64,000 bases of DNA from assembly GCA_016188775.1 (NCBI GenBank), contig JACPHC010000007.1, positions 28,097 to 92,096 on the forward strand, given 5' to 3'. Positions 2,731 through 63,588 of the stretch are shown piece by piece (positions within the stretch are counted from its first letter, which is position 1; each line of letters opens with the position of its first letter). This DNA comes from Parcubacteria group bacterium. Lineage in GTDB: Bacteria > Patescibacteriota > Minisyncoccia > JACPHC01. The notes beneath the pieces were generated by a model. The model worked only from the letters and a program-made list of their open reading frames with translations, was not told where the DNA came from and ran no database searches. The position numbers and the translations under genes were made by a program.

Positions 2731-2759
2731 TGTTTCAATTTATTTCTTTTAATTTATTT

Positions 2760-2791
2760 TAGCACTTAATTGCTATCGCTTATAAATGCTA
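2760..2791. repeat. 32-bp palindromic element TAGCACTTA-N13-TAAATGCTA (copy 1 of 3)
   Basis: Near-identical copies at 31724..31755 and 36524..36555. All three sit next to stable-RNA genes. Confidence 0.6.
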
Positions 2792-2818
2792 AATAAATTA
2801 TTGGAAATTATACATATA

Positions 2819-4687: not shown

Positions 4688-5074
4688 TTATTTCGCTTCG
4701 TTATAATATTTAATAACTTTTTCAATTATCGTGTCAATTCTGGCGTTGGCTTTGATTAAAAAATCCGCTATTCCCAGAGCTTTAATTTTATCCACGTCGG
4801 CCATTTGGCTTAAATTAGAAATAACGATCACAGGGACGCTTTTCCAGCTTTCAATTTTTTTTATTTCCGAAAGTATTTCAAACCCGGACGCTCCGGGAAG
4901 CATCAAATCAAGGATAATCACGGTCGGCGGATTGCTTTTCGGGTCTTTTATGTAATTAAGCGCTTCTTTGCCGTTAATCAAAGGTTTTACCATCGCGTTT
5001 TGCTTGGCAAATTTAAGTTGGTAAGCCCTTTGGACCGATTGGTCGTCTTCAATTATGAGAATGTATTTTTCCAT
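4688..5074 (-). CDS. single-domain response regulator (receiver only)
   Basis: CheY-like fold with the DD...D...K residues. It is a close paralogue of the response regulator at 8058..8447. Its start overlaps the stop of the upstream response regulator by 1 nt. Confidence 0.8.
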   Translation of the reverse strand: MEKYILIIEDDQSVQRAYQLKFAKQNAMVKPLINGKEALNYIKDPKSNPPTVIILDLMLPGASGFEILSEIKKIESWKSVPVIVISNLSQMADVDKIKALGIADFLIKANARIDTIIEKVIKYYNEAK

Positions 5075-8057: not shown

Positions 8058-8447
8058 TCAATCCTTCGCTTCGTTATAGTATTTAATAACAAGCTCGATC
8101 ATTTCGTCAATTCTAGTGTCGGCTTTGATTAAAAATTTTTTAATGCCCAGCGCTTTGACTTTTTCAATATCAGCGGCCTGGCTTAGATTGGAGAGCACCA
8201 GAACTGTCGCGTCTTTCCAGCCGTCTCGTTTTTTAATTTCCGAAAGAATTTGGAAACCCGAAGCGCGAGGCAACATCAAGTCAAGTATAATCACGGCCGG
8301 CGGTTCGTTTTTTAGGTTTTTGACGAAATCAATCGCTTCTTGTCCGTCCAAAACGGCTTTAAACGGCAAATTGTTTTTAGCGAATTTTAATTGATAGGCT
8401 TTTTGAATGACCGGATCGTCTTCAATTATGAAAATGTATTTATTCAT
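8058..8447 (-). CDS. single-domain response regulator (receiver only)
   Basis: Starts at MNKYIFIIEDD. The longer listed ORF at 8058..8672 runs into tRNA-Ser and is not real. The protein is highly similar to the one at 4688..5074. Confidence 0.8.
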   Translation of the reverse strand: MNKYIFIIEDDPVIQKAYQLKFAKNNLPFKAVLDGQEAIDFVKNLKNEPPAVIILDLMLPRASGFQILSEIKKRDGWKDATVLVLSNLSQAADIEKVKALGIKKFLIKADTRIDEMIELVIKYYNEAKD

Positions 8448-8537
8448 TGGCGGAGGGTGCAGGATTTGAACCTGCGAGGAGCTTTCGCCCCAACTGGTTT
8501 TCAAGACCAGCGCCATAAACCGCTCGGCCAACCCTCC
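8448..8537 (-). tRNA. tRNA-Ser (anticodon TGA), class II with a long variable arm; CCA encoded
   Basis: Cloverleaf GGAGGGT...CTGGT-CTTGAAA-ACCAG...GCAGG-TTCAAAT-CCTGC-ACCCTCC-G-CCA. Confidence 0.8.
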
Positions 8538-8632
8538 GTTTAAACCACTTCCGCCCAAGACGAACCAGCCTTGGGCTGACAGGCGCGTCTCCGTAATTTT
8601 AAAATTATCATTTATCATCGTTTTAATCAAAT

Positions 8633-8688
8633 AAAGCATCCGCGCCACCCTACGGGTGGCGCGGTATTGCAATAATGCTTTGTTATGA
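8633..8688 (+). repeat. GC-rich hairpin repeat (core copy A): AAAGCATCCGCGCC-loop-GGCGCGG..ATAATGCTTTGTTATGA
   Basis: Related copies at 19515, 42873 (minus) and 58080 (minus). GC-rich stem in an AT-rich genome. Confidence 0.6.
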
Positions 8689-17770: not shown

Positions 17771-19516
17771 TTGGCAAAAGAAAAAACATTTTTTGATATT
17801 TTAGAGTCCAAAGGTCTTTTAAAAAGAACCGAGATTGATTTTATCGCCAAAGAAGCGAAAGATAAAAATATTGACCCGGAAGAACTGCTGATTGATAAAT
17901 ATCGTTTTTCAGCCATTGAAATCGCTAAAGCCAAAAGCGAGCTTACCGGCGCTCCCTTTAAAGTCATTCGAGCCGAAATTCCATTTGATGTTTTGCAATT
18001 GATTTCGGAAGAAGCGGCTCGGCGTTATCGTTTTATCCCTTTGGCGAAAACGGATAATATTCTTGAAGTCGGCATGATTAATCCCGAAGACGTCAAAGCC
18101 CAAGAAGCGCTCAAATTTATAATTTTAAGAAGCGGTTTGACCCCCAAAATTTATATTGTCAGCCGTTCCGATTTTGAAGATGTTTTGAAACAATATCGCG
18201 GTTTAAAAGGCGAGGTCAAAAAAGCCCTGAAAGAATACACCAAAGAAGCGGCCGAGGAAGAAATAATTTTGCCAAAATCTCCCTTGATTGAGAATTTAGA
18301 AAGAATGGCGGTTGAGGCGCCGATAACGAAAATAGTCTCGGTTATTTTAAGGCACGCGGTTGAAGGCAACGCTTCCGATGTTCACGTTGAGCCGACCGAT
18401 AAACAGCTTCGGGTGCGTTTTCGGGTGGACGGCATTCTTTATACCAGTCTTTTGCTGCCGGTGGAAATTCATTCGGCCGTTGTTTCCCGCATCAAAATTC
18501 TTTCTAATCTTCAGATAGACGAGACGCGCAAACCTCAAGACGGCCGTTTTCACACCGTTGTTGAAGATAAAGAGGTTGATTTTCGGGTTTCCACTTTTCC
18601 CACCAGTTTCGGCGAAAAAGTGGCGATGAGAATTTTGGATCCAACCGTCGGTCTTAAGAGTTTCAGCGACCTCGGCCTTCTCGGACGCAATGCCGAGGTT
18701 TTGTTTGAAGGATTGAAGCGGCCGTTCGGCTTGATTCTTTTGACCGGGCCGACCGGTTCGGGAAAATCCACCACCCTTTACGCGATTTTACAGTTTTTAA
18801 ACAAAGAGACGGTTAACATTGTCAGTCTTGAAGATCCGATTGAGTATTTTTTGGCCGGAGTCAATCAATCTCAAATTAAACCCGAGATCGGCTACGATTT
18901 CGCCACCGGGTTAAGGCATATTTTAAGAGGCGATCCGGATGTTATAATGGTGGGGGAAATCCGCGATCGGGAAACGGCCGCTTTGGCGGTTCACGCCGCC
19001 TTGACCGGCCATCTCGTTCTTTCCACTCTTCACACCAATGACGCTTTCGGCGTCATTCCCCGGCTGATTGATTTGGGCGTTGAGCCTTTTTTAATACCCT
19101 CGACATTAACCATTGCCATGGCTCAAAGATTGATTCGACGGCTTTGTCCGGAGTCAAGGCAGGAGACTGAGGTTGACCCGGAAAAATCCTTGATGATTGA
19201 AAAAACTTTAGCCGATTTACCCAAAGAAATTAAAGAGAGCGTTAAAATTAAAAAAGGCGCCAAAGTTTATCGGCCATTGGTTTCGCCAACGTGCCCGAAA
19301 GGCACGAGAGGCCGAATTGGCATTTACGAGGTTTTGCGAATGACGCCGGGGTTGGAAAAAATTATTTTGGAAGAACCGTCGGAAGCTCGGCTGAAAGAAG
19401 AAGCTAAAAAACAAGGGATGGTTTCAATGTACGCCGACGGCCTTTTAAAAGCGCTGGAGGGCGTTATCAGTTTTGAAGAACTGCAACAGACTGCCCAAAC
19501 GCCGGATGCCGAATAA
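17771..19516 (+). CDS. pilB: type IV pilus assembly ATPase PilB (GspE family)
   Basis: N-terminal T2SS-E domain; Walker A GPTGSGKST; tetracysteine motif. Confidence 0.9.
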   Translation: MAKEKTFFDILESKGLLKRTEIDFIAKEAKDKNIDPEELLIDKYRFSAIEIAKAKSELTGAPFKVIRAEIPFDVLQLISEEAARRYRFIPLAKTDNILEVGMINPEDVKAQEALKFIILRSGLTPKIYIVSRSDFEDVLKQYRGLKGEVKKALKEYTKEAAEEEIILPKSPLIENLERMAVEAPITKIVSVILRHAVEGNASDVHVEPTDKQLRVRFRVDGILYTSLLLPVEIHSAVVSRIKILSNLQIDETRKPQDGRFHTVVEDKEVDFRVSTFPTSFGEKVAMRILDPTVGLKSFSDLGLLGRNAEVLFEGLKRPFGLILLTGPTGSGKSTTLYAILQFLNKETVNIVSLEDPIEYFLAGVNQSQIKPEIGYDFATGLRHILRGDPDVIMVGEIRDRETAALAVHAALTGHLVLSTLHTNDAFGVIPRLIDLGVEPFLIPSTLTIAMAQRLIRRLCPESRQETEVDPEKSLMIEKTLADLPKEIKESVKIKKGAKVYRPLVSPTCPKGTRGRIGIYEVLRMTPGLEKIILEEPSEARLKEEAKKQGMVSMYADGLLKALEGVISFEELQQTAQTPDAE

Positions 19517-19695
19517 AGCATCCGCGCCGCAAGCGGCGCGGAATTGTGATAATGCTTTGTTATGAAAAGTTCTCGCTCGGCCCTGCCTGCCGGCAAGGCA
19601 GGCCGACCAACTCGCCTCGCTCGATTTAAACTCGTTTCGCTCGTTGCCTTCATCCCCGCGACAAGTCGCGTGGTATTCGGCGAATACATAATAAA
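19515..19695 (+). repeat. full-length (~180-nt) copy B of the GC-hairpin repeat family
   Basis: Its core matches 8633..8688. Its extension matches the reverse complement of 57917..58080 except for a 24-nt indel. The listed ORF MKSSRSA... is its translation. Confidence 0.6.
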
Positions 19696-23593: not shown

Positions 23594-23667
23594 GTCATTG
23601 CGAGCGACCGAAGAAAGCGAAGCAATCTAGCTTTCATAAACGAGATTGCCACGGCGTCTTCGACGTC
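23594..23667. repeat. inverted-repeat miniature element (GTCATTGCGAG...GAAGCAATCT / AGATTGCC...CTCGCGATGAC)
   Basis: Imperfect 74-bp palindrome. The same arms flank the GIY-YIG remnant at 52.6-52.9 kb. Confidence 0.6.
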
Positions 23668-23781
23668 TCGCGATGACAAAAAATAAGTTTTCGGATAGTT
23701 TCTGAAAATTTTAAAATTAAAATCCCCTTGATTAACATCAAAGGGATTTTAATTTTAAATCGTTTGAAAATTTAATTAACT

Positions 23782-23911
23782 GTCATTGCGAGGAGCGAAG
23801 CGACGAAGCAATCTCAATAATATTAGCTAAAATACGAGATTGCCACGCTCCTTTCAGTCTCTCGCAATGACGCATGGGATTGCTTCGGCGATTTTATCGC
23901 CTCGCAATGAC
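23782..23911. repeat. second inverted-repeat miniature element (23782..23871) plus an extra half-arm (23878..23911)
   Basis: The same GTCATTGCGAG/GAAGCAATC arms; the half-arm GATTGCTTCGGCGATTTTATCGCCTCGCAATGAC matches 52588..52622 in reverse complement. Confidence 0.6.
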
Positions 23912-31694: not shown

Positions 31695-31723
31695 TAATTT
31701 AATACTTGTATAATATATTTATT

Positions 31724-31755
31724 TAGCACTTACTTGCTATCGCTTATAAGTGCTA
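31724..31755. repeat. 32-bp palindromic element TAGCACTTAC-N12-ATAAGTGCTA (copy 2)
   Basis: Same family as 2760..2791 and 36524..36555. It lies about 115 bp upstream of the tRNA promoter. Confidence 0.6.
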
Positions 31756-31838
31756 TATCTGTTTCTATCTCGTAAAATTATCAATGATTCGATCCATTGG
31801 TAAAAAATAAAATTGGACTAACTGAACTAACAAAAAAT

Positions 31839-33895: not shown

Positions 33896-34104
33896 AGCAT
33901 TGAAAATTTGATTTTTGAATGCTAAATTATTATTGACCTTTTGCGAAATAATTTTTCGTAATGAAATTTGAAGATTTTGAGCGAAAATTGTGAAGAGTGA
34001 GGAAGCCGTATTTGGTTAAAAATACGGATACGAGCTCTGAACAATTTGCAGCCAAAATATTAAAATTGAAATAGAAAAGATTATTTCGCAAGAGGTCTAT
34101 ATTC

Positions 34105-34176
34105 GCCGGCGTAGCTCAGTGGCAGAGCGAGGCTTTCATAAGGCCGAGGTCAGAGGTTCGAATCCTCTCGCCGGCA
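34105..34176 (+). tRNA. tRNA-Met or tRNA-Ile2 (anticodon CAT), elongator type
   Basis: GCCGGCG-TA-GCTC-AGTGGCA-GAGC-G-AGGCT-TTCATAA-GGCCG-AGGT-CAGAGG? / T-arm GAGG-TTCGAAT-CCTC with acceptor CGCCGGC-A. Position 1-72 is paired. The anticodon stem has an A27·G43 mismatch. Confidence 0.7.
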
Positions 34177-36377: not shown

Positions 36378-36523
36378 AAGCGTAAATTTAAAAGCAGACA
36401 GAAATGCCTGCTTTTGTTTTTTAATAAAGTCTATATTCTAAGATAACTTGGGCGCTCTCAAAAAAACCAGTAAAAATTTCAAACAACCCTCATTTATATT
36501 ATTTATTTTTTTAGTATTTTATT

Positions 36524-36555
36524 TAGCACTTATAAGCGATAGCAAATAAGTGCTA
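36524..36555. repeat. 32-bp palindromic element TAGCACTTAT-N12-ATAAGTGCTA (copy 3, loop inverted relative to copies 1 and 2)
   Basis: About 145 bp upstream of tRNA-Asp. Confidence 0.6.
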
Positions 36556-36701
36556 AAATTAAAAGTAAATTTAAATAAGTTAAATAAGTTAAGTAAGTTA
36601 ATTAGTTTATCAAATCTAAATATAAAGTTTGCTTCGTATGAGATTTGCGTGTTCAAATAAAATTTGGTAGATTATTATGCCTTAATAATTTTTTAAATTT
36701 T

Positions 36702-38557: not shown

Positions 38558-38745
38558 CAAGGCGGTTTTAAATCGAGATCTGTAGATCCCTTACACGATA
38601 ATCTTTTCTACTACAATTATGCCTTTTCGGCTGCAAACAATTCATCGCTCGTCAATGAATATTCTGTATTCATCTCCTCGCGCTTCATTGTTTTCGCTCG
38701 AAAAAGAAGAATTTCGTGACGAAAAATTATTACGCAAAAGGTCTT

Positions 38746-42852: not shown

Positions 42853-42872
42853 GTTTTATTATGTGTTCGTCT

Positions 42873-42919
42873 AGCATTATCACAATGCCGCGTCATCCTG
42901 CGGGTGACGCGGATGCTTT
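42873..42919 (-). repeat. GC-hairpin repeat, core copy C, minus orientation
   Basis: agcattatcacaatgccgcgtcatcctgcgggtgacgcggatgcttt. It overlaps the stop codon of the minus-strand peptidase gene. Confidence 0.6.
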
Positions 42920-44483
42920 ATTTAAACATTTCTATCAATTTGACAGGGTCAGTAAGGGCCGTATTGATTCTGACTGCCAGATGTAAATGAGGAGCGTTGG
43001 AATTGCCGGTTGAGCCAACTTTACCGACGATGTCTCCTTTTTTGACAAAATCGCCGATTTTTACCGAAAATTCGGATTGATGGAGATAAAAAGAAAATAT
43101 TCCGGCGCCGTGATCAATTACCGTGATATTGCCTTCAAGAAAATAATCATAGCCGAGATGGACTATGTGTCCGGCGGCAATGGCTTTAATCGGATAACCC
43201 GCCGGAGCCCGAAAGTCAGTTCCGTGATGAAGTCGAGATTTTTTATTTTTTGGATTGACTCTTTGCTGGCCGAATGGGCTTGTAATTTGACCGATATCCG
43301 CTTGTTTTTCAACCGGCCAATCAAATCCGTCGAGCCAATAATTTTCAGGGCTTTGATTTTGATAAGCTAATATTAATTCTCTATGCTCTTTTTCAATTCT
43401 CGCGTTTTCTTCGTCTGTCCAGTTCCTTCGATTCCATTGCTGACTGACGCTTTTTTTGAATTTACCCTTTTTGACGTTGATGATTTTTTCTTCAATGGGC
43501 CCGTCATTGCCTTTCTGATAAATCGCGAGCGGATAATCGCCCGGCGCCAAATAAAGATCAATGCCAACAAGGGCGTATGTTTTACTGTCTTTTTTAAAAA
43601 AGACAAGATTATATTTTTTCTCTTGAACCGTCAGAAATCCCTCCAGATCGTTCGGATCAACCTCGCTTTTTAAAGGAATTATTACAGGATCGCCTTGGAA
43701 AGCCGAACCGGAGTGGATATTGTTTGAATTCGCGGAAACATCAATGACTATCCTCTGTTTTTCTTTTAGCCAAAGTATATTTTCATTTTCGGAACATTTC
43801 GGATTAATAAATTCGCAAAGTTTTTTCGCGTCTTCTTTAAATAAGCGAATACAGCCGTGCGAGGCCGGATAGCCGGGAAGGTCGCCGCTATGAAGCCAGT
43901 AAGCGATGCCTTGCTCGTCAATGAAAAACATTGATGCGTAGGGCATCGGAATCGCGTTTTCCTCCGCGTCTTTGTAGACAGAGGAAAAATGGTCGCGATG
44001 AAAAGCCAGTGTTTCAAATAAACCAGTCGGAGTTTCACAGTTTTTTATTTTTTTAGTTTTTTCGTCTTGGCAACTTAATCGTCCTGAACTGATGGGAGCG
44101 GAAAAAATTAGTTTTCCTTTTTCGTAAGCTCCCAGCCATTGCTCTTCCAAATTGACTAAAATGGATTTTTCCAATTTTTTTCTTTCTTCAATCCTTTCCT
44201 TAATAAAAGGCGGCATTGGCTCGTAATTTTTAGCCTCCTCTATGTTTTTGGGCGCTTTAATTCTGTCCCCGGAGATTAAATGATTTTTGTCCATCCTGTT
44301 GAAGCGCGCCACCCAAGGCCATTCATTTTTAAATAACTTATAAAATGAATCCCCGGGCCCAACTCGATAATAGCTCCAAGCAATATTATTTTGCGAAGGA
44401 TAAATTGGCAATTCTCGAGCTGAAACTGCGTTTCCATTTAGCCACAAACCGATTAAAAATCCAACGGCGATTTTAAAAAACAT
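42918..44483 (-). CDS. bifunctional cell-wall enzyme: L,D-transpeptidase (YkuD) domain plus a C-terminal M23 metallopeptidase
   Basis: YkuD catalytic SHGCIRL; M23 HxxxD / HLH motifs (HHGTDF...APHLHLAV); signal peptide. Confidence 0.8.
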   Translation of the reverse strand: MFFKIAVGFLIGLWLNGNAVSARELPIYPSQNNIAWSYYRVGPGDSFYKLFKNEWPWVARFNRMDKNHLISGDRIKAPKNIEEAKNYEPMPPFIKERIEERKKLEKSILVNLEEQWLGAYEKGKLIFSAPISSGRLSCQDEKTKKIKNCETPTGLFETLAFHRDHFSSVYKDAEENAIPMPYASMFFIDEQGIAYWLHSGDLPGYPASHGCIRLFKEDAKKLCEFINPKCSENENILWLKEKQRIVIDVSANSNNIHSGSAFQGDPVIIPLKSEVDPNDLEGFLTVQEKKYNLVFFKKDSKTYALVGIDLYLAPGDYPLAIYQKGNDGPIEEKIINVKKGKFKKSVSQQWNRRNWTDEENARIEKEHRELILAYQNQSPENYWLDGFDWPVEKQADIGQITSPFGQQRVNPKNKKSRLHHGTDFRAPAGYPIKAIAAGHIVHLGYDYFLEGNITVIDHGAGIFSFYLHQSEFSVKIGDFVKKGDIVGKVGSTGNSNAPHLHLAVRINTALTDPVKLIEMFK

Positions 44484-51300: not shown

Positions 51301-51392
51301 ACGCGTCAATATAAATATCAAACTAAATTTAGTCAAGACAAATTTAACAAACAGAAAATAAAGCGTTAGATTAATTTTCATTATTCATCGGA

Positions 51393-51461
51393 AGGTTTCA
51401 AAATCAATTATAGCATTTTCTTTCATACTACGTAGTATGAAAGAAAATGCTATAATTGATT
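51393..51461. repeat. 60-bp perfect palindromic element with an outer GGTTTCAAAATCAA arm (left terminal-inverted-repeat-like copy)
   Basis: aatcaattatagcattttctttcatactacgtagtatgaaagaaaatgctataattgatt. An inverted copy lies at 63336..63390 and a degenerate copy at 62697..62730. Confidence 0.65.
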
Positions 51462-51699
51462 TTTTTATCTTCTTAAAAGATTTTCTAATTATTTAAAGAG
51501 TTGATTTTTTTCTCATGCTTTTTTAAAAATAGCCTAGTTTGTTGACTTATTGATTTATATATTTATACTGAATTTTAATGAATCCCGCACGGAGCCGCGA
51601 TCGCTTCTTCTTGGGATACGCATAAATATTATAAATTAGAAATTATAAAAATTAATACAAGCGGATTGCGTCTTTTGATCGCGATTTGCTTCGTACGGG

Positions 51700-52554: not shown

Positions 52555-52866
52555 TTGTCGTTGCGAGAAGGTATAAACCGACCCATTTGTCATCGCGAGG
52601 CGATAAAATCGCCGAAGCAATCTTTCAATGGTTATGAACTAAAAGCATTATTATATATACAATATACATACACATTAAAATATAACATTATAAAACTCGT
52701 TTATTACGAAACTTTTGACAGTCCGGAGGTAGCTATTCAAAGAAAAAAACAAACTAAAGGCGGTTCCCGTAAAAAGAAAATATATTTAATAAAAAGCATC
52801 AACCCTGAATTTAAAGATTTGAGTGATTCTCTTTGAGATTGCTTCGCCTTCGGCTCGCAATGACAA
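52555..52866 (+). pseudogene. decayed GIY-YIG nuclease gene bracketed by the GTCATYGCGAG / GAAGCAATCT inverted repeats
   Basis: Retains the C-terminal ...KLVYYETFDSPEVAIQRKKQTKGGSRKKKIYLIKSINPEFKDL of small GIY-YIG proteins; the N-terminal GIY/YIG region is shortened and degenerate (LLYIQYT). Inverted repeats lie at 52588..52622 and 52835..52866. Confidence 0.5.
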
Positions 52867-52927
52867 ATTAAAGTAAGATAATGTTCGCTTATCGGAAAAA
52901 TAACATTACAATTAAATGATATTTTCT

Positions 52928-53000
52928 GTCGTCATTGCGAGGCGATGAAATCGCCGAAGCAATCTCTCAATGACAAAGCAAATTCGGCTCGCAATGACAA
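52928..53000. repeat. further copy of the GTCATTGCGAG...GAAGCAATC / CTCGCAATGAC miniature element
   Basis: gtcattgcgaggcgatgaaatcgccgaagcaatctctcaatgacaaagcaaattcggctcgcaatgac. Confidence 0.6.
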
Positions 53001-57607: not shown

Positions 57608-57637
57608 TTGACTTTAAACTTTCTACTTTGCTACAAT
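57608..57637 (+). promoter_or_regulatory. candidate sigma70 promoter for hicB (TTGACT-18-TACAAT)
   Basis: Read directly from the sequence; 9 nt upstream of the hicB ATG. Confidence 0.35.
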
Positions 57638-57645
57638 TAATTTAA

Positions 57646-57864
57646 ATGAAAAAAACATCTTTAACTAACATAGTTTGGAAAGAAGGTAAATATTATGTTG
57701 CCCAATGTCTTAACGTTGACGTGTCAAGTTTTGGCAGAACAAAAGCCGAAGCTTTAAAAAATCTTGAAGAAGCGCTTGAACTTTATTTTGAAGATTTTTC
57801 CATTTCTAAAATTATTCGCGTAGAAAAGCCGGTTTTTGTTGAATTGTCTTTTTCAAATGCCTAA
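57646..57864 (+). CDS. hicB: HicB-family antitoxin
   Basis: GKYYVAQCLNVDVSSFGRTKAEALKNLEEALELYFE matches the HicB/UPF0150 N-domain pattern. Confidence 0.6.
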   Translation: MKKTSLTNIVWKEGKYYVAQCLNVDVSSFGRTKAEALKNLEEALELYFEDFSISKIIRVEKPVFVELSFSNA

Positions 57865-57967
57865 GTTTTATTCTTCTCGATACATCATTAAAGTCCTGGA
57901 AAAACAGGGCTTTATTTTTATTATGTATCCGCCGAATACCCCATCTCCCATAAGGAGACGGGATTGA
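57857..57967 (+). pseudogene. hicA: truncated hicA toxin gene (only about 22 native codons) interrupted by the GC-hairpin repeat element
   Basis: MPKFYSSRYIIKVLEKQGFIFI matches the HicA N-terminus (..KVLEK.GF..). The frame then runs into repeat sequence (MYPPNTPSPIRRRD*). Its start overlaps the hicB stop. Confidence 0.5.
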
Positions 57968-58080
57968 GGCGGCGAGCGAAGCGAGTCTGAATCGAGCGAG
58001 GCAAGTTGGTCGAGCCGAGCGAGAACTTTTCATAACAAAGCATTATCACAATGCCGCGCCGCAAGCGGCGCGGATGCTTT
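57917..58080 (-). repeat. full-length copy D of the GC-hairpin repeat family (reverse orientation), inserted into hicA
   Basis: Its reverse complement matches 19515..19695 except for a 24-nt indel. The listed ORF 57812..58033 (MKSSRSA...) is its translation. Confidence 0.6.
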
Positions 58081-58091
58081 ATTTCTCAAAC

Positions 58092-60257
58092 ATGATAAAA
58101 AAAAATATATTAAAGAAAATTATTCGCTTGGGCGTGTATTTAATAATTTTTACCCCTCTTTTAGTTTTTTCTGCCACTATTTATCCTGCTTTGACCGGAA
58201 AAGTTGTTATTTTCCGTATTTTAATTGAAATTTTATTTATTTTTTGGCTTTTCTTGATTTTTTTTTATAAAGAATATCGGCCCAATTTAAAATCTCCGCT
58301 TTTTTTGTCAATTTTTATATTTATATCAGTTTCTTTTATCTCCGCTTTTTTAGGAATTAATCCTTGGCAAAGTTTTTTCAGCACTGCCGACCGTTTAATG
58401 GGTATTTTCACTTGGCTGCATTTTTTTGGTCTTTTTTTGATAATTTCAATTTTCTCTAAAGAGGAGCGGGAAAAATTTTTAAAACTTACCTTATTCGTCA
58501 GTTTTCTCGTTAGCCTTTCCGCGATTTATCAAAGAATTAATCCCGATTTTCTTTCTTTTGGCAGCAGCGAACGTCTGGCCGGCACTATTGAAAACCCGGG
58601 TTTTTTTGCCAGTTATTTAATTCCGCATATTTTTTTGGCCCTGTATTTTGTTTTTCAGAATTATTCCGCATCCAATATCTCAAATTTTATATTTTACATT
58701 TTTTATTCCCAATATTTTTGGCTTCTTCTTCTGGAATCTTTGATGTTGTTTTTTACCGGCACTCGGGGCGCGATTTTAGCTTTTGGATTTACTTTGATTT
58801 TATTAGTTTTTCTTTTTAGTTTTACGAGGCTAAGCCTCGTAAAAAGCGATTTTAAAAATTCGTTTCCGAAGTTTTTTAGACGTCCGGCATCTTTAATTTT
58901 GGCAGTTTTAATATTAATTTTTGCTCTAGGTTTTCTTTTTCGCCATCAACCGTTTTTTTATCAGATTCCATTTTTGAAACGTTTCGCCGGACTTTCTTTT
59001 AACGATCCGACAATTCAGACGAGATTTTTAACTTGGAAAATAGCTTTTAAGGGATGGCAAGAACGGCCATTTTTTGGCTGGGGTCCGGAAAATTTTAATA
59101 TTCCATTTAATAAATATTATGATCCGTCTTTTTTGAAATACGGTTTTCAAGAAACATGGTTTGACCGGGCGCATAATATCATTTTTGATAATTTAATAGC
59201 CGCCGGTCTTTTAGGTCTTATTAGTTATTTGGCTATTTTTTTCAGCGCTTTTTATTTGATTTTTAAATCAAAGGAATTTATAACTCAAAAATTAGTTTTA
59301 ATCGCCGGACTTCTCGCCTATTTTATTCAAAATCTTTTTATTTTTGATACCTTTGTCGGTTTATTGCCTTTATTTTTAGTTTTTGGTTTTATCAATACTC
59401 AATCCGTTTCCCGGCCTTTATTGGAATTATCCGGCAAAACCGGAAAAATTTTAAAATTATTTATTTTTTTTGTCGTCGGAGCATTAATTTTTACAGCCTT
59501 AGTTGTAAATTTTTCCACTTTTAAAAACGCTGTTAGTTTAAGAAACGCCATTTTAGCTGAATTGAAGAATAATTTTAATCTTTCCAGAAATATAACTAAA
59601 AAAAATTTAAGTTCTTTTTATCCTTATAAAGAAGAAACTGGCTTGCAATTTATGGCATTTATAAAACAATCTTTTGATAAAGGGTTAGATAGAGGAGAAG
59701 CGATTCAAGATATAAAATTAGCGGAAGATTTTTTTTCTTTAATCTCCTCCCGCCACAAAAAAAATTCGTTTTTATATTTCCAATATGGCAATTTTTTAAA
59801 TTCAGCCGCTAATTACGATAAAGCTTATCTCGCTAAAACCGATGAAGTGTTTAATAAAGCTTTGGAATTAAGCCCTCGGCGTCAGCAAATTCATCATTCT
59901 CTTGGAGTTAATAAAATAATGGAAGGAGAATATGAAGAGGCGATTTGGATATTTAAAAAATCCGCTTCTTTTTATAACGCGGCTCCCGATCCCCATTTTT
60001 ATTTAGGTCTTGCTTATTTTGCGATGAAAGACGAGAAAAACGGATTTGTTGAAATTGAGAAAGCCTTGGAATTCGGCTACACTGCGAAAACGCCGGAAGA
60101 AGGATTATATTTAGGGGATATTTATGAAAAAAATATTAATCTTCAAAAAGCCCTTTTTTTCTACGAATCGGCTTTATCGCTGGATCCGCAAAACAAAAAA
60201 ATTCAAGCCAAAGTTGAAACGATTAAAAATCAATTAAATAATGAAACTTCCAACTGA
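58092..60257 (+). CDS. polytopic membrane protein with an O-antigen-ligase/polymerase-like (Wzy_C) domain and C-terminal TPR repeats
   Basis: At least 10 transmembrane helices; WGPENF...FDRAHNIIFD (Wzy_C AHN motif); a C-terminal TPR region of about 250 aa. The start is moved to MIKKNIL because the listed start lies inside the repeat. Confidence 0.6.
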   Translation: MIKKNILKKIIRLGVYLIIFTPLLVFSATIYPALTGKVVIFRILIEILFIFWLFLIFFYKEYRPNLKSPLFLSIFIFISVSFISAFLGINPWQSFFSTADRLMGIFTWLHFFGLFLIISIFSKEEREKFLKLTLFVSFLVSLSAIYQRINPDFLSFGSSERLAGTIENPGFFASYLIPHIFLALYFVFQNYSASNISNFIFYIFYSQYFWLLLLESLMLFFTGTRGAILAFGFTLILLVFLFSFTRLSLVKSDFKNSFPKFFRRPASLILAVLILIFALGFLFRHQPFFYQIPFLKRFAGLSFNDPTIQTRFLTWKIAFKGWQERPFFGWGPENFNIPFNKYYDPSFLKYGFQETWFDRAHNIIFDNLIAAGLLGLISYLAIFFSAFYLIFKSKEFITQKLVLIAGLLAYFIQNLFIFDTFVGLLPLFLVFGFINTQSVSRPLLELSGKTGKILKLFIFFVVGALIFTALVVNFSTFKNAVSLRNAILAELKNNFNLSRNITKKNLSSFYPYKEETGLQFMAFIKQSFDKGLDRGEAIQDIKLAEDFFSLISSRHKKNSFLYFQYGNFLNSAANYDKAYLAKTDEVFNKALELSPRRQQIHHSLGVNKIMEGEYEEAIWIFKKSASFYNAAPDPHFYLGLAYFAMKDEKNGFVEIEKALEFGYTAKTPEEGLYLGDIYEKNINLQKALFFYESALSLDPQNKKIQAKVETIKNQLNNETSN

Positions 60258-62427
60258 AAAAAAACTTATTCAAATTTCAGTCATTCTTATTTTTTTATCA
60301 TTATTCTTGCCATCATTTCGTTTTAAAAGTCAGCTTTTTATTCCTTTTAAGTCTTTGCTTTTTCAATTTTTTGTTAGTTTATTATTTTTGATTTATTTTT
60401 ATCTGACGCTTAATAATTCCAAATTTCGTCCTAAATTTTCCTGGTTAAACTTAGCTGTTATTTTATTTTTAATCTCTTCTTTAATTTCTTTATTTTTTGG
60501 GGTTAATCCGGAGAAAAGTTTCTTCGGAACTCTTGAAAGAATGGGGGGATTTCTCTCTCTTTTTTATTATGGCGTTCTCTTTTTTATTTTAAGTCATTTA
60601 TTTAAAGGAGAATACCAAGAAAAATGGCGAAAATTTATAAATTGGAGTTTAATCGCCGGCTTTCTCGCTGCTTTTTGGGGAATAGGACAATGGCTAAAAA
60701 TCTCTTTTTTATTTTTTGAAGGAGAACGGGTAAGCGGGCCGATCGGCAATCCGATTTTTTTCGCTGCTTATCTTCTTTTTATGGTATTTTTTAGTTTATT
60801 ATTTTTTTTGGAATCAAAAACAAAACAAGCAAAAATTTTATACAGCTCTGTTTTGATGATTTCTGTCTTCGCGATCATTCTTTCCGGAAGTCGGGCAGTC
60901 TCCCTCAGTCTTATTTTAGGGTTAATTTTTTTCAGCCTTTTTTACGCTTTTTTAACTCAAAATAAAAAAATAAAAAAAATTTCCGTCGCCGTCGCGATTT
61001 TTATTATTTTGATATTCGGTTCAATTTTATTTTTTAAAAATCAGCCTTTTATTCAAAATAATTTTTATCTTTCTCGATTAGCTCTCGGTTCTTTAAAAGA
61101 TTTTCGGAATCGGTATCTCGCTTGGCAGATCAGTTGGGAAGCTTTTAAAGAGCGGCCCGTTTTTGGCTGGGGCGAGGAAAATTTTAAAATCGCTTTTAAC
61201 AAATATTTTAGTCCAGCCTATTTTGACACGCCAACAGCGGAAGTTTTTTTTGATCGCGCCCATAATGTTATTTTTGATCGCTTAACAAGCATTGGAATCG
61301 TTGGCCTTTTGAGCTATCTTTTTATTTTTCTCGCTATTTATTTGACAGTTTTTCAATTAAAAAAAGGAAAAAAAATAAACGAAGGCCAATTTGTCATTTT
61401 TCTTGTTTTGCCCGCGGCGTATTTTTTGCAGAATTTTTTCGCTTTTGACACCTTCCCGACCTATCTTAAGTTTTTCTTTTTTTTAGCGTATTTAAATTCG
61501 TTTGTTTTAGGTGGCGAGCCCAAAAATAAATTTGAGTTTTTTAAAAAAATAAATTTTCCGTCTCAATATCGTCTTTTTATTTTTATTCCGGTTTCTTTTT
61601 TGATATTTTTCGCGATTTATAAATTTAATATTAAGCCGCTAATTTCAATTTTTTATTATGTTAAGTCTCAAAACGTCCAATTATTGCCAGAAGCGTTGAA
61701 ATACTACAAAAAATCCGTTTCTTTTAATACCTTCGCCAACGCTGACATTCATGATTATTTTTCAAGGCGGTTTTTTCAAAATGTCGCCAATGATTTTATA
61801 AAAACAAAAGAAGAGAAACAAAAATATCTTTTAATGGCCGAGGAGGCGATGCGAAAAGCCGCGATTCTAGACCCCCAAAATTCTGATTTTTGGCTGAAAT
61901 TAGCCGGAATTCAAATAATGCTTGTAGAAAATGACATTAAAGAAGGACTGGAAAGAGCGGAAATTTCTTTAAAAAAAGTTTTGGAATTAAGTCCAAATAA
62001 TTTGCCCGCCCTTCTTGATCTAGCGGAGGTTAAAAGACTTCAGGACCGGCCGGAAATATTTTTAGAGCTGGCAAAAAAGGGCGTAGCATTAAATTCGAAA
62101 TCATCCGTGGCGCATTGGTATTTAGCCGCGGCTTATATCGCGAATAAAAATGAAATTGACGCGCAAAAAGAATTTGATATCGCTTACGGTTCAGGCTACA
62201 AAGAGGATATTCGAGATTTAAGATATCTGGCGGGCATTTATCGAAAATTAAATCAATGGCAGAAAGTCGCGAAATTTTACGAAGAAATTATAAAAAAAGA
62301 TTCAACAAACGCGGATTTTTATCTGCGACTGGCTGAGGCTTATTATAATTTAGGAAAAATCGATCAAGCGGAGAAAATTTTTGAAAAAGCGAAAACGATT
62401 AATCTCGATTTGGAAAAAATAAAATAG
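60241..62427 (+). CDS. tandem paralogue: Wzy_C-like polytopic membrane protein with C-terminal TPR repeats
   Basis: WGEENF...FDRAHNVIFD; same architecture as the upstream gene; 17-nt overlap with it. Confidence 0.6.
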   Translation: MKLPTEKKLIQISVILIFLSLFLPSFRFKSQLFIPFKSLLFQFFVSLLFLIYFYLTLNNSKFRPKFSWLNLAVILFLISSLISLFFGVNPEKSFFGTLERMGGFLSLFYYGVLFFILSHLFKGEYQEKWRKFINWSLIAGFLAAFWGIGQWLKISFLFFEGERVSGPIGNPIFFAAYLLFMVFFSLLFFLESKTKQAKILYSSVLMISVFAIILSGSRAVSLSLILGLIFFSLFYAFLTQNKKIKKISVAVAIFIILIFGSILFFKNQPFIQNNFYLSRLALGSLKDFRNRYLAWQISWEAFKERPVFGWGEENFKIAFNKYFSPAYFDTPTAEVFFDRAHNVIFDRLTSIGIVGLLSYLFIFLAIYLTVFQLKKGKKINEGQFVIFLVLPAAYFLQNFFAFDTFPTYLKFFFFLAYLNSFVLGGEPKNKFEFFKKINFPSQYRLFIFIPVSFLIFFAIYKFNIKPLISIFYYVKSQNVQLLPEALKYYKKSVSFNTFANADIHDYFSRRFFQNVANDFIKTKEEKQKYLLMAEEAMRKAAILDPQNSDFWLKLAGIQIMLVENDIKEGLERAEISLKKVLELSPNNLPALLDLAEVKRLQDRPEIFLELAKKGVALNSKSSVAHWYLAAAYIANKNEIDAQKEFDIAYGSGYKEDIRDLRYLAGIYRKLNQWQKVAKFYEEIIKKDSTNADFYLRLAEAYYNLGKIDQAEKIFEKAKTINLDLEKIK

Positions 62428-62667: not shown

Positions 62668-62696
62668 ATTCTTTAAATTATAATTTGACAAAAACT

Positions 62697-62730
62697 TTGA
62701 TACTACTTAGTATTAAAGAAAATGTTAAAA
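62697..62730. repeat. degenerate copy of the 60-bp palindromic element (tttgatactacttagtattaaagaaaatg)
   Basis: Differs from the core tttcatactacgtagtatgaaagaaaatg at 3 positions. It lies about 55 bp upstream of the yerC-like gene. Confidence 0.45.
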
Positions 62731-62782: not shown

Positions 62783-63313
62783 ATGGCTAAATTTTTAAAA
62801 AGGAATCGTTTAACCAAAGAAGAGCAAGAAAAAGCGGTGCTTACTCTTTGCCAGGCCTTGGTTGTTATTAAAGATTTTAATGAGGCGGCAAGTTTACTTG
62901 TTGATCTTTTTTCACGTCAAGAAATGGAAATGATAGCCAAACGTTTAATGATTGCTAAATTTCTTATTCAAGGGAAAAGTTACGATGATATTCGTCAAAA
63001 TCTAAAAGTGAGTCATGCTACTATCGCGAGGGTTAGCTCTTGGCTAGAACAATCCGGCGCGGGGTATCGTTTAGTGATTGAACGGTCAAAAAATTTAAAA
63101 TTATCAGAATTATCAAAAAGCAAGATTTCCAATTGGAGTCAATTGAGACGACGTTATCCTTTATATTTTTGGCCCCAGATTCTTCTTGAAGAAATAGTTC
63201 GTAAAGCGCAAAAAAGAGATCGAGATAAATTACTTAATACCTTAGATGTATTGAAAAAAGCGGGAGAAAAGAATCAACTTTTTAAACAATTAGAAAATCT
63301 TTTAAGAAGATAA
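62783..63313 (+). CDS. TrpR-related YerC/YecD-family DNA-binding protein
   Basis: AKRLMIAKFLIQGKSYDDIRQNLKVSHATIARVS matches the Trp-repressor-like HTH pattern; 176 aa. Confidence 0.5.
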   Translation: MAKFLKRNRLTKEEQEKAVLTLCQALVVIKDFNEAASLLVDLFSRQEMEMIAKRLMIAKFLIQGKSYDDIRQNLKVSHATIARVSSWLEQSGAGYRLVIERSKNLKLSELSKSKISNWSQLRRRYPLYFWPQILLEEIVRKAQKRDRDKLLNTLDVLKKAGEKNQLFKQLENLLRR

Positions 63314-63335
63314 AATTTAATTATATTAATTATTA

Positions 63336-63390
63336 CATTTTCTTTCATACTACGTAGTATGAAAGAAAATTTAATTTTGATTTTGAAACC
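63336..63390. repeat. right (inverted) copy of the 60-bp palindromic element, with the GGTTTCAAAATCAA arm on the outside
   Basis: cattttctttcatactacgtagtatgaaagaaaat plus ttaattttgattttgaaacc. It is the reverse complement of the left copy's outer arm. Confidence 0.65.
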
Positions 63391-63588
63391 CCCTGATGAA
63401 AATGAAAATTTCATCTAACGCCTTATTTTCCGTTTGTTTTTCAAAACAGATTATCTCCATTACAATTTATGATGACAATTCAGCCGGAGTTATTACCTAT
63501 TAATTTGCCTCAGGAGTCCAAAATTGGGTGGCATTATGCATTGATTTGACATTTTATTATCATTTGTTAGTTTTAAATTTATCAAAAT

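What the first reader, a model, noticed from the sequence alone, without database searches (positions are those of the whole stretch)
57646..58091. hicB antitoxin with its hicA toxin gene truncated by insertion of a GC-hairpin repeat element
The gene at 57646..57864 has the HicB N-domain pattern. An overlapping ORF begins MPKFYSSRYIIKVLEKQGFIFI, which is the HicA N-terminus. After about 22 codons the sequence becomes the ~165-nt repeat element (57917..58080), whose reverse complement matches the element between pilB and pilA at 19515..19695. This directly shows the repeat behaving as an insertion that inactivated a toxin gene and left an orphan antitoxin. Because the repeat also supplies the ATG-containing 5' end of the downstream Wzy_C-TPR gene ORF, it may influence that gene's expression.
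Basis: partly seen in the sequence, partly recalled or inferred. Interest (0 to 1): 0.6.

Follow-up and report, generated by a model that had tools for sequence, protein, structure and literature searches.

The report
Toxin gene cut by mobile repeat
In a Parcubacteria (CPR) genome, a small hicB-hicA toxin-antitoxin pair has lost its toxin: a GC-rich hairpin repeat sits after codon 22 of hicA and the rest of the gene is deleted, which is a tidy but ordinary case of gene decay.

Summary
hicB (57646-57864, 72 aa) is intact and has a good promoter. The overlapping ORF at 57857 matches the first 22 residues of the HicA toxins that partner this HicB family elsewhere (custom profile E 2.3e-7, match ends exactly at codon 22).

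From 57917/57923 the sequence is a repeat. A full inverted copy lies at 19512-19695, a short copy with both ends at 42855-42922, and a 3'-module-only copy at 8628-8687.

All three copies with both ends are bracketed by TTTATT. Removing the element plus one TTTATT restores HicA codons S23-Q24, which argues for a clean insertion.

Insertion alone does not explain the locus. HicA codons 25-72, including the conserved SQKGSH stretch, are missing, and the remnant abuts the Wzy start at 58092. A separate deletion is therefore needed, and its order relative to the insertion is unknown.

The idea that the repeat supplies the Wzy start codon is not supported. The deposited 721-aa protein and the neighbouring paralogue both favour ATG 58092, outside the element.

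The element has no terminal inverted repeats and matched no Rfam family at threshold. It was not found in any other collection searched, and no transposase was found among the 30 window ORFs scanned with Pfam.

Verdict: a degenerate class-2 hicBA locus plus a lineage-specific MITE/REP-like repeat. Modest interest.

The parts
57608..57637 (+). Promoter-like site for hicB: TTGACT, 18-nt spacer, TACAAT with TG upstream. It ends 8 nt before the hicB ATG.
   Evidence: 10 of 12 consensus matches. Consensus match only; function not tested.
57646..57864 (+). hicB, an intact small (72 aa) class-2 HicB antitoxin with no DNA-binding domain.
   Evidence: It retains all 26 invariant columns of a 30-member alignment. 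Homologues are followed by a PF07927 HicA gene.
57857..57922 (+). hicA remnant, codons 1-22. The start overlaps the hicB stop by 8 nt.
   Evidence: E 2.3e-7, profile positions 1-22. A chimera of this fragment with the L022 C-terminus scores 62.4 bits on PF07927, against 59.6 for native L022.
57917..57922 (+). 5' TTTATT, which is also hicA codons F21-I22. Putative target site or direct repeat.
   Evidence: Sequence. The same hexamer precedes ATGT in copies B and D.
57923..58077 (+). Repeat element copy A proper (155 nt). It contains hairpin 57925-57939; hairpin 57940-57962; three CGAGCGA motifs at 57973, 57993 and 58016; and the 3' module from 58031.
58031..58085 (+). Conserved 3' module. The outer stem pairs 58037-58043 with 58074-58080. 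A 10-nt asymmetric loop follows. The inner GC hairpin is 58054-58073 and is followed by AUGCUUUAUUU, which looks like a terminator.
   Evidence: Covariance model R1, 78.7 bits. Fold of -21.5 kcal/mol, z -4.25. Terminator pattern hit. Two compensatory pairs across 4 copies.
58078..58083 (+). 3' TTTATT, a direct repeat of 57917-57922.
   Evidence: Sequence. Present at the 3' end of all four copies.
58084..58091 (+). TCTCAAAC. TCT CAA A continues HicA as S23 Q24 (K25) once the element is excised. The deletion junction follows, directly before the Wzy ATG.
   Evidence: Sequence, compared with HicA ...FISQKGSH. Chance of Ser-Gln here is about 0.003 (own estimate from base composition).
58092..60257 (+). 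Wzy_C (O-antigen ligase-like) plus TPR membrane protein, 721 aa. The probable start is 58092, not 58074.
   Evidence: P0121, 100% identity and coverage at 721 aa.
19512..19695 (-). Copy B, full length, lying between pilB (T2SSE ATPase) and a pilin gene. It carries an extra 21-nt hairpin and a different hairpin 2. Its 3' TTTATT (19512-19517) contains the pilB TAA stop (19514-19516).
42855..42922 (+). Copy D, internally deleted. It has a 12-nt 5' end joined to the 3' module and is flanked by TTTATT on both sides. Its 3' TTTATT contains the TAA stop (42918-42920) of the convergent YkuD/M23 peptidase gene.
   Evidence: A Logan contig spanning it is identical.
8628..8687 (-). Copy C, 3' module only, lying between an ABC-ATPase gene and a tRNA.
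   Evidence: (86.3 bits).

Best explanation
The locus is a degenerate class-2 hicBA toxin-antitoxin module in a Parcubacteria genome.

hicB is intact and probably still transcribed from its own promoter.

hicA was hit by a short, non-coding, hairpin-rich repeat of 155 nt. The repeat integrated at a TTTATT hexamer (codons F21-I22) and left TTTATT on both sides.

A second event deleted hicA codons 25-72 and everything up to the start codon of the downstream Wzy_C-TPR gene.

The surviving hicA product would be 36 aa: 22 HicA residues plus 14 residues read from the element. It lacks the conserved SQKGSH stretch and all downstream residues, so the toxin is dead and hicB is an orphan antitoxin.

The repeat belongs to a small, modular family (4 copies in 64 kb). 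Its ends are conserved, its internal hairpins vary or are missing, and its 3' module is a two-tier GC hairpin followed by a U-rich tail. It behaves like a non-autonomous mobile element of the MITE / REP / IS200-IS605-derived kind that prefers TTTATT sites, which are often the AATAAA around TAA stop codons.

What is shown: the homology of the fragment, the breakpoint, the repeat family, the TTTATT flanks and the absence of the HicA C-terminus.

What is inferred: that the element is mobile, that TTTATT is a target or duplication, the order of the two events, and any effect on Wzy expression.
For: - HicA homology ends exactly at codon 22.
- The hicBA layout, including the 8-nt overlap, is the family norm. 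Six of 7 distinct homologous loci have an intact 70-72 aa hicA.
- The repeat family is defined.
- Copy D keeps only the two termini, as expected if the termini are what matters for spread.
- TTTATT flanks copies A, B and D.
- Excision restores S23-Q24.
- In B and D the 3' TTTATT holds the TAA stop of a convergent gene in the same register, and both proteins are domain-complete. This fits a host-derived target rather than sequence carried in by the element.
- Four independent Logan assemblies all break at window 58033, inside the repeat, as expected for multi-copy sequence.
- The HicA C-terminus is absent from all six frames of the window.
Against: - No empty site, no polymorphic copy and no autonomous element were found, so mobility is not demonstrated.
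- Only 3 junction pairs exist, so TTTATT could simply be part of the element.
- The S-Q restoration rests on 6-7 nt.
- There are no terminal inverted repeats, so this is not a classical MITE.
- A deletion ending 1-2 nt before the Wzy ATG is a coincidence that a one-step mechanism would explain more economically. Candidates are an element-mediated adjacent deletion or recombination between two copies.
Confidence: 0.7

Rival explanations
1. One-step, element-mediated rearrangement. The hicA 3' part was lost through homologous recombination between a copy in hicA and a second direct copy upstream of Wzy. Alternatively, it was lost through an intramolecular transposition that deleted DNA adjacent to the element. 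The TCTCAAAC after the element would then be native Wzy upstream sequence, and its Ser-Gln reading would be chance.
For: The missing 48 codons and the position of the junction 8 nt before the Wzy ATG. Copies share 39-70 nt of near-identical sequence, which is enough for recombination.
Against: The post-element codons TCT CAA match HicA S23 Q24 exactly, with a chance of about 0.003. There is no second junction or chimeric copy structure to point to.
Confidence: 0.18
2. The repeat is not mobile DNA. It is a family of paralogous small-RNA genes or terminator cassettes spread by duplication, with a TATTAT -10-like box at the 5' end and a hairpin plus U-tail at the 3' end. On this view hicA was truncated by an unrelated deletion that happened to end at such a unit.
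For: A terminator-like hairpin in all four copies. Compensatory changes in the stem. A promoter-like hit that uses the element's TATTAT. Copies A, C and D lie downstream of same-strand genes.
Against: Copy B is antisense to the genes on both sides of it. Copy D lacks the whole body and copy C lacks the 5' end, so no common RNA is conserved. The precise TTTATT bracketing and the S-Q restoration fit integration. No Rfam family reaches threshold.
Confidence: 0.1
3. The 22-codon HicA-like ORF is fortuitous, and hicB was always solitary here.
For: Pfam alone does not detect the 22-aa fragment. Solitary hicB genes exist (PMC10865869).
Against: Family-specific profile E 2.3e-7, against E about 1 for the next-best ORF segment in the window. 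The ATGCCTAA overlap with the hicB stop is identical to that in homologous loci. The fragment substitutes for a native N-terminus in the PF07927 score.
Confidence: 0.02

Closest known systems
Class 2 hicBA modules (small HicB without a DNA-binding domain, followed by HicA; Gerdes, mBio 2024, PMC10865869)
   Same: The gene order is hicB then hicA. HicB is 72 aa, within the 63-103 codon range. The genes overlap. In homologous loci the partner is a 70-72 aa PF07927 HicA.
   Different: Here hicA is reduced to 22 (+2) codons and lacks the conserved SQKGSH stretch and everything after it, so only the antitoxin half is left. That paper also notes solitary hicB genes.
Bacterial non-autonomous repeats: MITEs such as Neisseria Correia elements, Rickettsia RPEs and pneumococcal RUP/BOX, and mosaic REP/BIME elements of enterobacteria (comparison from my own knowledge)
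   Same: Short (55-172 nt), non-coding, multi-copy, GC-rich hairpins, modular or mosaic structure, mostly at gene ends, occasionally inside a gene, able to carry terminator- or promoter-like signals.
   Different: No terminal inverted repeats (checked by eye on the ends; one search shows none). A constant 6-nt TTTATT on both sides rather than TA or a variable duplication. No sequence relative found anywhere.
IS200/IS605-derived palindrome-associated elements and REP/RAYT systems (comparison from my own knowledge)
   Same: Asymmetric ends, each with a subterminal hairpin. No terminal inverted repeats. A fixed orientation relative to an asymmetric AT-rich target in the three copies with both ends. 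The 3' hairpin lies about 10 nt from the end.
   Different: These families insert 3' of the target without duplicating it, whereas here the same hexamer is on both sides. The hairpin sequences at the two ends are unrelated to each other. No Y1 transposase was seen among the window proteins scanned.
Rfam RF02770 Ysr224 (Yersinia sRNA)
   Same: The 3' module aligns to both stems of the model: ACAAAGC...CCGCGCC-loop-GGCGCGGA.GCUUU.
   Different: 26 bits against a gathering score of 70, and 58 model positions are missing. This is a shape resemblance, not membership.

Membership tests
HicB antitoxin (small, class 2) | Sequence match to curated HicB-type profiles | tested here: inconclusive
   Pfam DUF7387 at 26.8 bits against a cutoff of 27.9; UPF0150-like at E 0.19; nothing useful in NCBIfam. 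A profile search against PDB gives a HicB-family chain (9svk_B) only at E 0.14. NCBI names the identical protein a HicB family antitoxin, and JGI names several close homologues (64-71% identical) RNase H-like HicB family nuclease.
HicB antitoxin (small, class 2) | Encoded in an operon with a HicA (PF07927) gene | tested here: met
   In 6 of 7 distinct homologous loci hicB is followed, with an 8-nt overlap, by an intact 70-72 aa HicA. The seventh has a hicA pseudogene. In the window the partner is the truncated remnant.
HicB antitoxin (small, class 2) | HicB N-domain (partial RNase H-like) fold | tested here: inconclusive
   The AlphaFold2 model from a 30-sequence alignment has mean pLDDT 50.2, too poor for a fold search.
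HicA toxin (PF07927) | N-terminal region homologous to HicA | tested here: met
   Custom profile E 2.3e-7 over positions 1-22. The chimera test gives 62.4 against 59.6 bits on PF07927.
HicA toxin (PF07927) | Complete domain, including the conserved ...SQKGSH... stretch and the C-terminal strands | tested here: not met
   Homology stops at codon 22, and no C-terminal match exists in any frame of the window. This is a pseudogene, not a functional member.
Classical MITE | Terminal inverted repeats | tested here: not met
   The 5' end ATGTATYCGCC and the reverse complement of the 3' end (GCATCCGCGCC) are not similar. No terminal inverted-repeat pair appears.
Classical MITE | Flanking direct repeat (target-site duplication) | tested here: inconclusive
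   TTTATT is present on both sides of A, B and D. Because it is the same hexamer each time, it could be a specific target, a duplication, or part of the element. The hicA frame and two stop codons suggest it is host-derived.
Classical MITE | Short, non-coding, multi-copy, with internally deleted derivatives | tested here: met
   Four copies of 55-172 nt, with no frame conserved between A and B.
Classical MITE | A cognate autonomous element or transposase in the genome | not testable with these tools
   None among the 30 window ORFs scanned with Pfam.
IS200/IS605-type PATE or REP | Subterminal hairpins at both ends and no terminal inverted repeats | tested here: met
   5' hairpin 57925-57939 (a perfect 7-bp stem in copy B) and 3' hairpin 58054-58073.
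IS200/IS605-type PATE or REP | Insertion 3' of a specific short target without duplication, plus a Y1 transposase or RAYT | tested here: inconclusive
   The constant TTTATT 5' of the element fits. The same hexamer at the 3' end does not obviously fit. No Y1 gene was seen in the window.
Intrinsic terminator | GC-rich stem-loop followed by a U-tract | tested here: met
   Pattern scan hit at 58054-58073 plus ATGCTTTATT. Stable fold in all copies. Activity was not tested, and copy B is antisense to its neighbours.
Rfam Ysr224 | Score at or above the family gathering threshold | tested here: not met
   26.3 and 26.6 bits against 70. No hit at gathering level.

The most novel reading that the evidence does not exclude
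The repeat may be a previously undescribed kind of small mobile element in Patescibacteria. On this reading it integrates in one orientation at TTTATT (frequently the AATAAA of TAA stop codons). It carries its own terminator-like two-tier hairpin and a -10-like box. It thereby rewires transcription units in a tiny genome, here replacing the whole upstream region of a Wzy-type cell-envelope gene while silencing a toxin. Its mechanism could be single-strand or site-specific integration unrelated to known MITE families.
Probability: 0.2. Interest if true: 0.5.

Novelty: new member of a known kind. Interest (0 to 1): 0.3.

Why it matters
The locus is a clean, codon-resolved example of how toxin-antitoxin modules decay into orphan antitoxins in reduced CPR genomes. 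A second route to the same outcome appears in a related locus, L016/L017, where hicA carries a nonsense mutation plus a frameshift.

It also documents a lineage-specific, hairpin-rich repeat family in a phylum where small mobile repeats are, to my knowledge, little described.

In practical terms, the repeat breaks short-read assemblies: four Logan contigs end inside it. It also creates a misleading upstream ATG for the neighbouring Wzy gene.

None of this overturns current understanding.

Tried and rejected
- **Relatives of the element.** All searches came back empty or with chance hits only.
  - blastn against phages: no match.
  - Two pattern scans of GTDB species genomes: 0 hits, then 2 chance hits without a hairpin.
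  - Two scans of JGI metagenomes: 0 hits each.
  - Two scans of viral contigs: 4 chance hits in coding sequence, then 0.
- **Translation trick.** I searched the 5.8-billion-protein set with all open frames of the element, hoping to catch spurious ORFs called over other copies. Nothing was found.
- **Synteny test.** The closest Wzy homologue is 38% identical.
- **Empty-site or polymorphism search in Logan contigs.** The hicB contigs all stop inside the repeat. The contig across copy D is identical to the window. The pilin protein is not on record.
- **Rfam.** Only tRNAs at gathering level. At E up to 10, only a sub-threshold Ysr224 resemblance. The literature on Ysr224 was uninformative.
- **HicB fold.** The structure prediction was too poor to use (pLDDT 50). 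The single-sequence PDB search was empty.
- **Inversion between copies A and B.** I looked for a HicA C-terminus next to copy B and anywhere else in the window. None was found.
- **The element as coding sequence.** Rejected, because no frame is conserved between A and B: there is a 4-nt length difference in hairpin 2 and there are stops.
- **DnaA-box reading of TTATCACAA.** Rejected by eye. It is one base short of TTATNCACA, and the motif differs in copy C.

Full report
**Setting**

The window is 39% G+C. Its proteins' identical or nearest database entries are named Parcubacteria / Patescibacteria. The genome has no close relative in the collections available: apart from the identical deposited protein, the best homologue of the Wzy_C-TPR protein is 38% identical.

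**The antitoxin**

- ORF 57646-57864 (+) encodes 72 aa.
- The identical protein is on record as a 'HicB family antitoxin' of a Parcubacteria MAG, and 3936 homologues were found, nearly all 72 aa.
- Curated profiles are only borderline: Pfam DUF7387 at 26.8 against a 27.9-bit cutoff, and UPF0150-like at E 0.19.
- A profile search of PDB reaches a HicB chain only at E 0.14, and an AlphaFold2 model was too poor to use (pLDDT 50).
- The best evidence for HicB identity is therefore genomic. In 6 of 7 distinct loci that encode 69-72% identical proteins, the gene is followed by an intact 70-72 aa PF07927 HicA gene, with an 8-nt overlap.
- This is the 'class 2' hicBA layout of Gerdes 2024 (PMC10865869): a small HicB without a DNA-binding domain, placed upstream of HicA.
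- The window's HicB keeps all 26 invariant columns of a 30-member alignment.
- A strong promoter-like site, TTGACT-18-TACAAT with TG, ends 8 nt before its ATG.

**The toxin remnant**

- ATG 57857 overlaps the hicB stop in the same ATGCCTAA arrangement as the homologues.
- Its first 22 residues, MPKFYSSRYIIKVLEKQGFIFI, align to residues 1-22 of the partner HicAs.
- tblastn gives E 8e-5 within the window.
- An HMM built from seven partner HicAs gives E 2.3e-7 over profile positions 1-22. The next-best ORF segment in all six frames is at E about 1.
- Pfam's HicA model cannot see 22 residues on their own. When the fragment replaces the native N-terminus of a real HicA (L022), the PF07927 score is 62.4 bits against 59.6 for the native protein.
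- The next residues expected are SQKGSH. Instead the ORF reads MYPPNTPSPIRRRD and stops.
- No HicA C-terminal sequence exists anywhere in the window.

**The repeat**

- From 57917 the sequence matches the reverse complement of 19512-19695, between a T2SSE ATPase (pilB) and a pilin gene. The blastn E-value is 1e-34, identity is 74% overall, and the last 70 nt are 96% complementary.
- Two further copies exist. Copy D at 42855-42922 has only the 12-nt 5' end fused to the 3' module. Copy C at 8628-8687 has only the 3' module.
- A covariance model of the 3' module finds exactly these four copies at 77-86 bits (E 5e-15 or lower). Every other window hit scores below 29 bits, and several of those are the same palindromic modules read on the opposite strand.
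- The 5' motif TTTATTATGTRTYCGYC occurs three times against 0.15 expected.
- The central CGAGCGARRCRAGT motif occurs only in A and B.
- The element is non-coding, since no frame is shared by A and B.
- It is strongly structured. The 3' module folds in all copies as an AGCAU/AUGCU outer stem, a conserved 10-nt asymmetric loop and an 8-11 bp GC hairpin (-21 to -29 kcal/mol, z -3.8 to -5.4). Two stem positions change in a compensatory way.
- Hairpin 2 has the same shape in A and B but an unrelated sequence, and B carries an extra 21-nt hairpin.
- No Rfam family is matched at threshold. The 3' module resembles Ysr224 at 26 bits against a gathering score of 70.
- There are no terminal inverted repeats.

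**Junctions**

- In A, B and D the element proper (ATGT...GGATGC) is bracketed by TTTATT on both sides.
- In A the 5' TTTATT is hicA codons F21-I22.
- Excising 57923-58083 joins it to TCT CAA A, which is S23 Q24 and the first base of K25. This matches ...GFIFISQKGSH of the L022 HicA. By my estimate from base composition, the chance of Ser-Gln there is about 0.003.
- In B and D the 3' TTTATT contains, in the same register, the TAA stop of a convergent gene: pilB at 19514-19516, and a YkuD/M23 peptidase at 42918-42920. Both proteins are complete against their Pfam domains.
- Together these observations suggest that TTTATT is host sequence, meaning a preferred target that is duplicated or recognised, rather than cargo.
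- With only three junction pairs this is inference, not proof.

**What insertion does not explain**

- After TCTCAAAC (58084-58091) comes the ATG of the Wzy_C-TPR gene (58092).
- About 145 nt of hicA (codons 25-72) plus any intergenic DNA are therefore gone.
- The simplest account is two events: an insertion at TTTATT and a deletion, in unknown order.
- A one-step alternative is an adjacent deletion made by the element, or recombination between two direct copies. It cannot be excluded, and it would make the S-Q match a coincidence.

**Start of the Wzy gene**

- The longest ORF starts at ATG 58074, inside the 3' arm of the element's stem.
- The deposited protein is 721 aa, which corresponds to 58092.
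- The tandem paralogue at 60241 has an N-terminus of matching length.
- Start codons in this genome are usually preceded by A/T-rich sequence without a Shine-Dalgarno motif.
- I therefore regard 58092 as the start.
- What is true is that the element, with a terminator-like hairpin, now occupies the whole region upstream of this gene. The gene must be transcribed either by read-through from the hicB promoter or from within the element. This is untested.

**Mobility and distribution**

- Four independent Logan assemblies (SRR12113420-24) carry hicB and all end at window 58033, inside the stretch that A and B share. This is the signature of a multi-copy sequence.
- I found no empty site and no polymorphism.
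- I found no copy outside this genome.
- No transposase appeared among the 30 window ORFs scanned with Pfam.
- The family is thus lineage-specific as far as these data go, and its mechanism of spread is unknown.

**Comparison and verdict**

- The locus works like, and is, a decayed class-2 hicBA module.
- A related Patescibacteria locus (L016/L017) has reached the same state by a nonsense codon plus a frameshift in hicA. Solitary hicB genes are also known (PMC10865869). Toxin loss with antitoxin retention is therefore recurrent and unsurprising.
- The repeat resembles bacterial MITE/REP-type elements in size, copy behaviour, hairpin content and modularity. It fails the terminal-inverted-repeat criterion of classical MITEs.
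- Its asymmetric hairpin ends and constant AT-rich flank are closer to IS200/IS605-derived elements, but the identical hexamer on both sides is not typical of those either.
- I file it as a new member of a known kind, with modest interest.

Noticed in passing
window 23595-23911 and 52589-53000: A second family of GC-rich hairpin repeats, about 35 nt each. The arms are conserved (GTCATTGCGAGG ... GAAGCAATC) and the inner stems vary. At least 8 copies occur in both orientations in two intergenic clusters. The second cluster surrounds ORF 52555-52836, which looks by eye like the C-terminal part of a GIY-YIG (YhbQ-like) nuclease; that reading was not tested.
   Followed up: partly
window 51346-51527 and 62678-62723 / 63251-63438: A perfect 30-nt palindrome, TTTCTTTCATACTACGTAGTATGAAAGAAA, occurs three times and flanks a Trp-repressor-like gene (62783-63313). 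About 180 nt at 51346-51527 form an inverted duplicate of 63251-63438. These are possibly operator sites.
   Followed up: no
window 2758-2794, 31722-31758, 36522-36558: A 37-nt conserved inverted repeat, TTTAGCACTTA...TAAGTGCTAAA, lies in three intergenic regions, two of them near tRNA genes. It is a candidate regulator binding site.
   Followed up: no
window 33931-34101 and 38583-38743: Segments of about 70 nt are repeated in inverted orientation (73-78% complementary), next to the tRNA at 34105 and upstream of the gene at 38716.
   Followed up: no
L016 1117-1340 (same sequence in L017): In another Patescibacteria hicB locus (HicB 72% identical), hicA is a pseudogene with a stop at codon 7 and a frameshift in an A-run, while hicB is intact. 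This is an independent case of toxin loss.
   Followed up: yes
window, all gene starts: Most genes have A/T-rich sequence and no Shine-Dalgarno motif before the start codon; only about five show GGAG-like sites. The hicB promoter's -10 box ends 8 nt before the ATG, which suggests a leaderless or near-leaderless mRNA.
   Followed up: partly
window 4692-4991 vs 8065-8364: A 300-nt direct repeat at 71% identity. The 4692-4991 arm lies within the receiver-domain (Response_reg) gene 4688-5074, so the 8065-8364 arm is likely a paralogous copy (not scanned with Pfam). ORF 8058-8672 as listed overruns the tRNA at 8451-8537 and repeat copy C, so it is over-extended.
   Followed up: no
window 58092-60257 and 60241-62427: Two tandem, overlapping Wzy_C-TPR paralogues of 721 and 728 aa lie downstream of a 1270-aa protein that carries a PG_binding_1 domain. 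This looks like a cell-envelope gene cluster.
   Followed up: no
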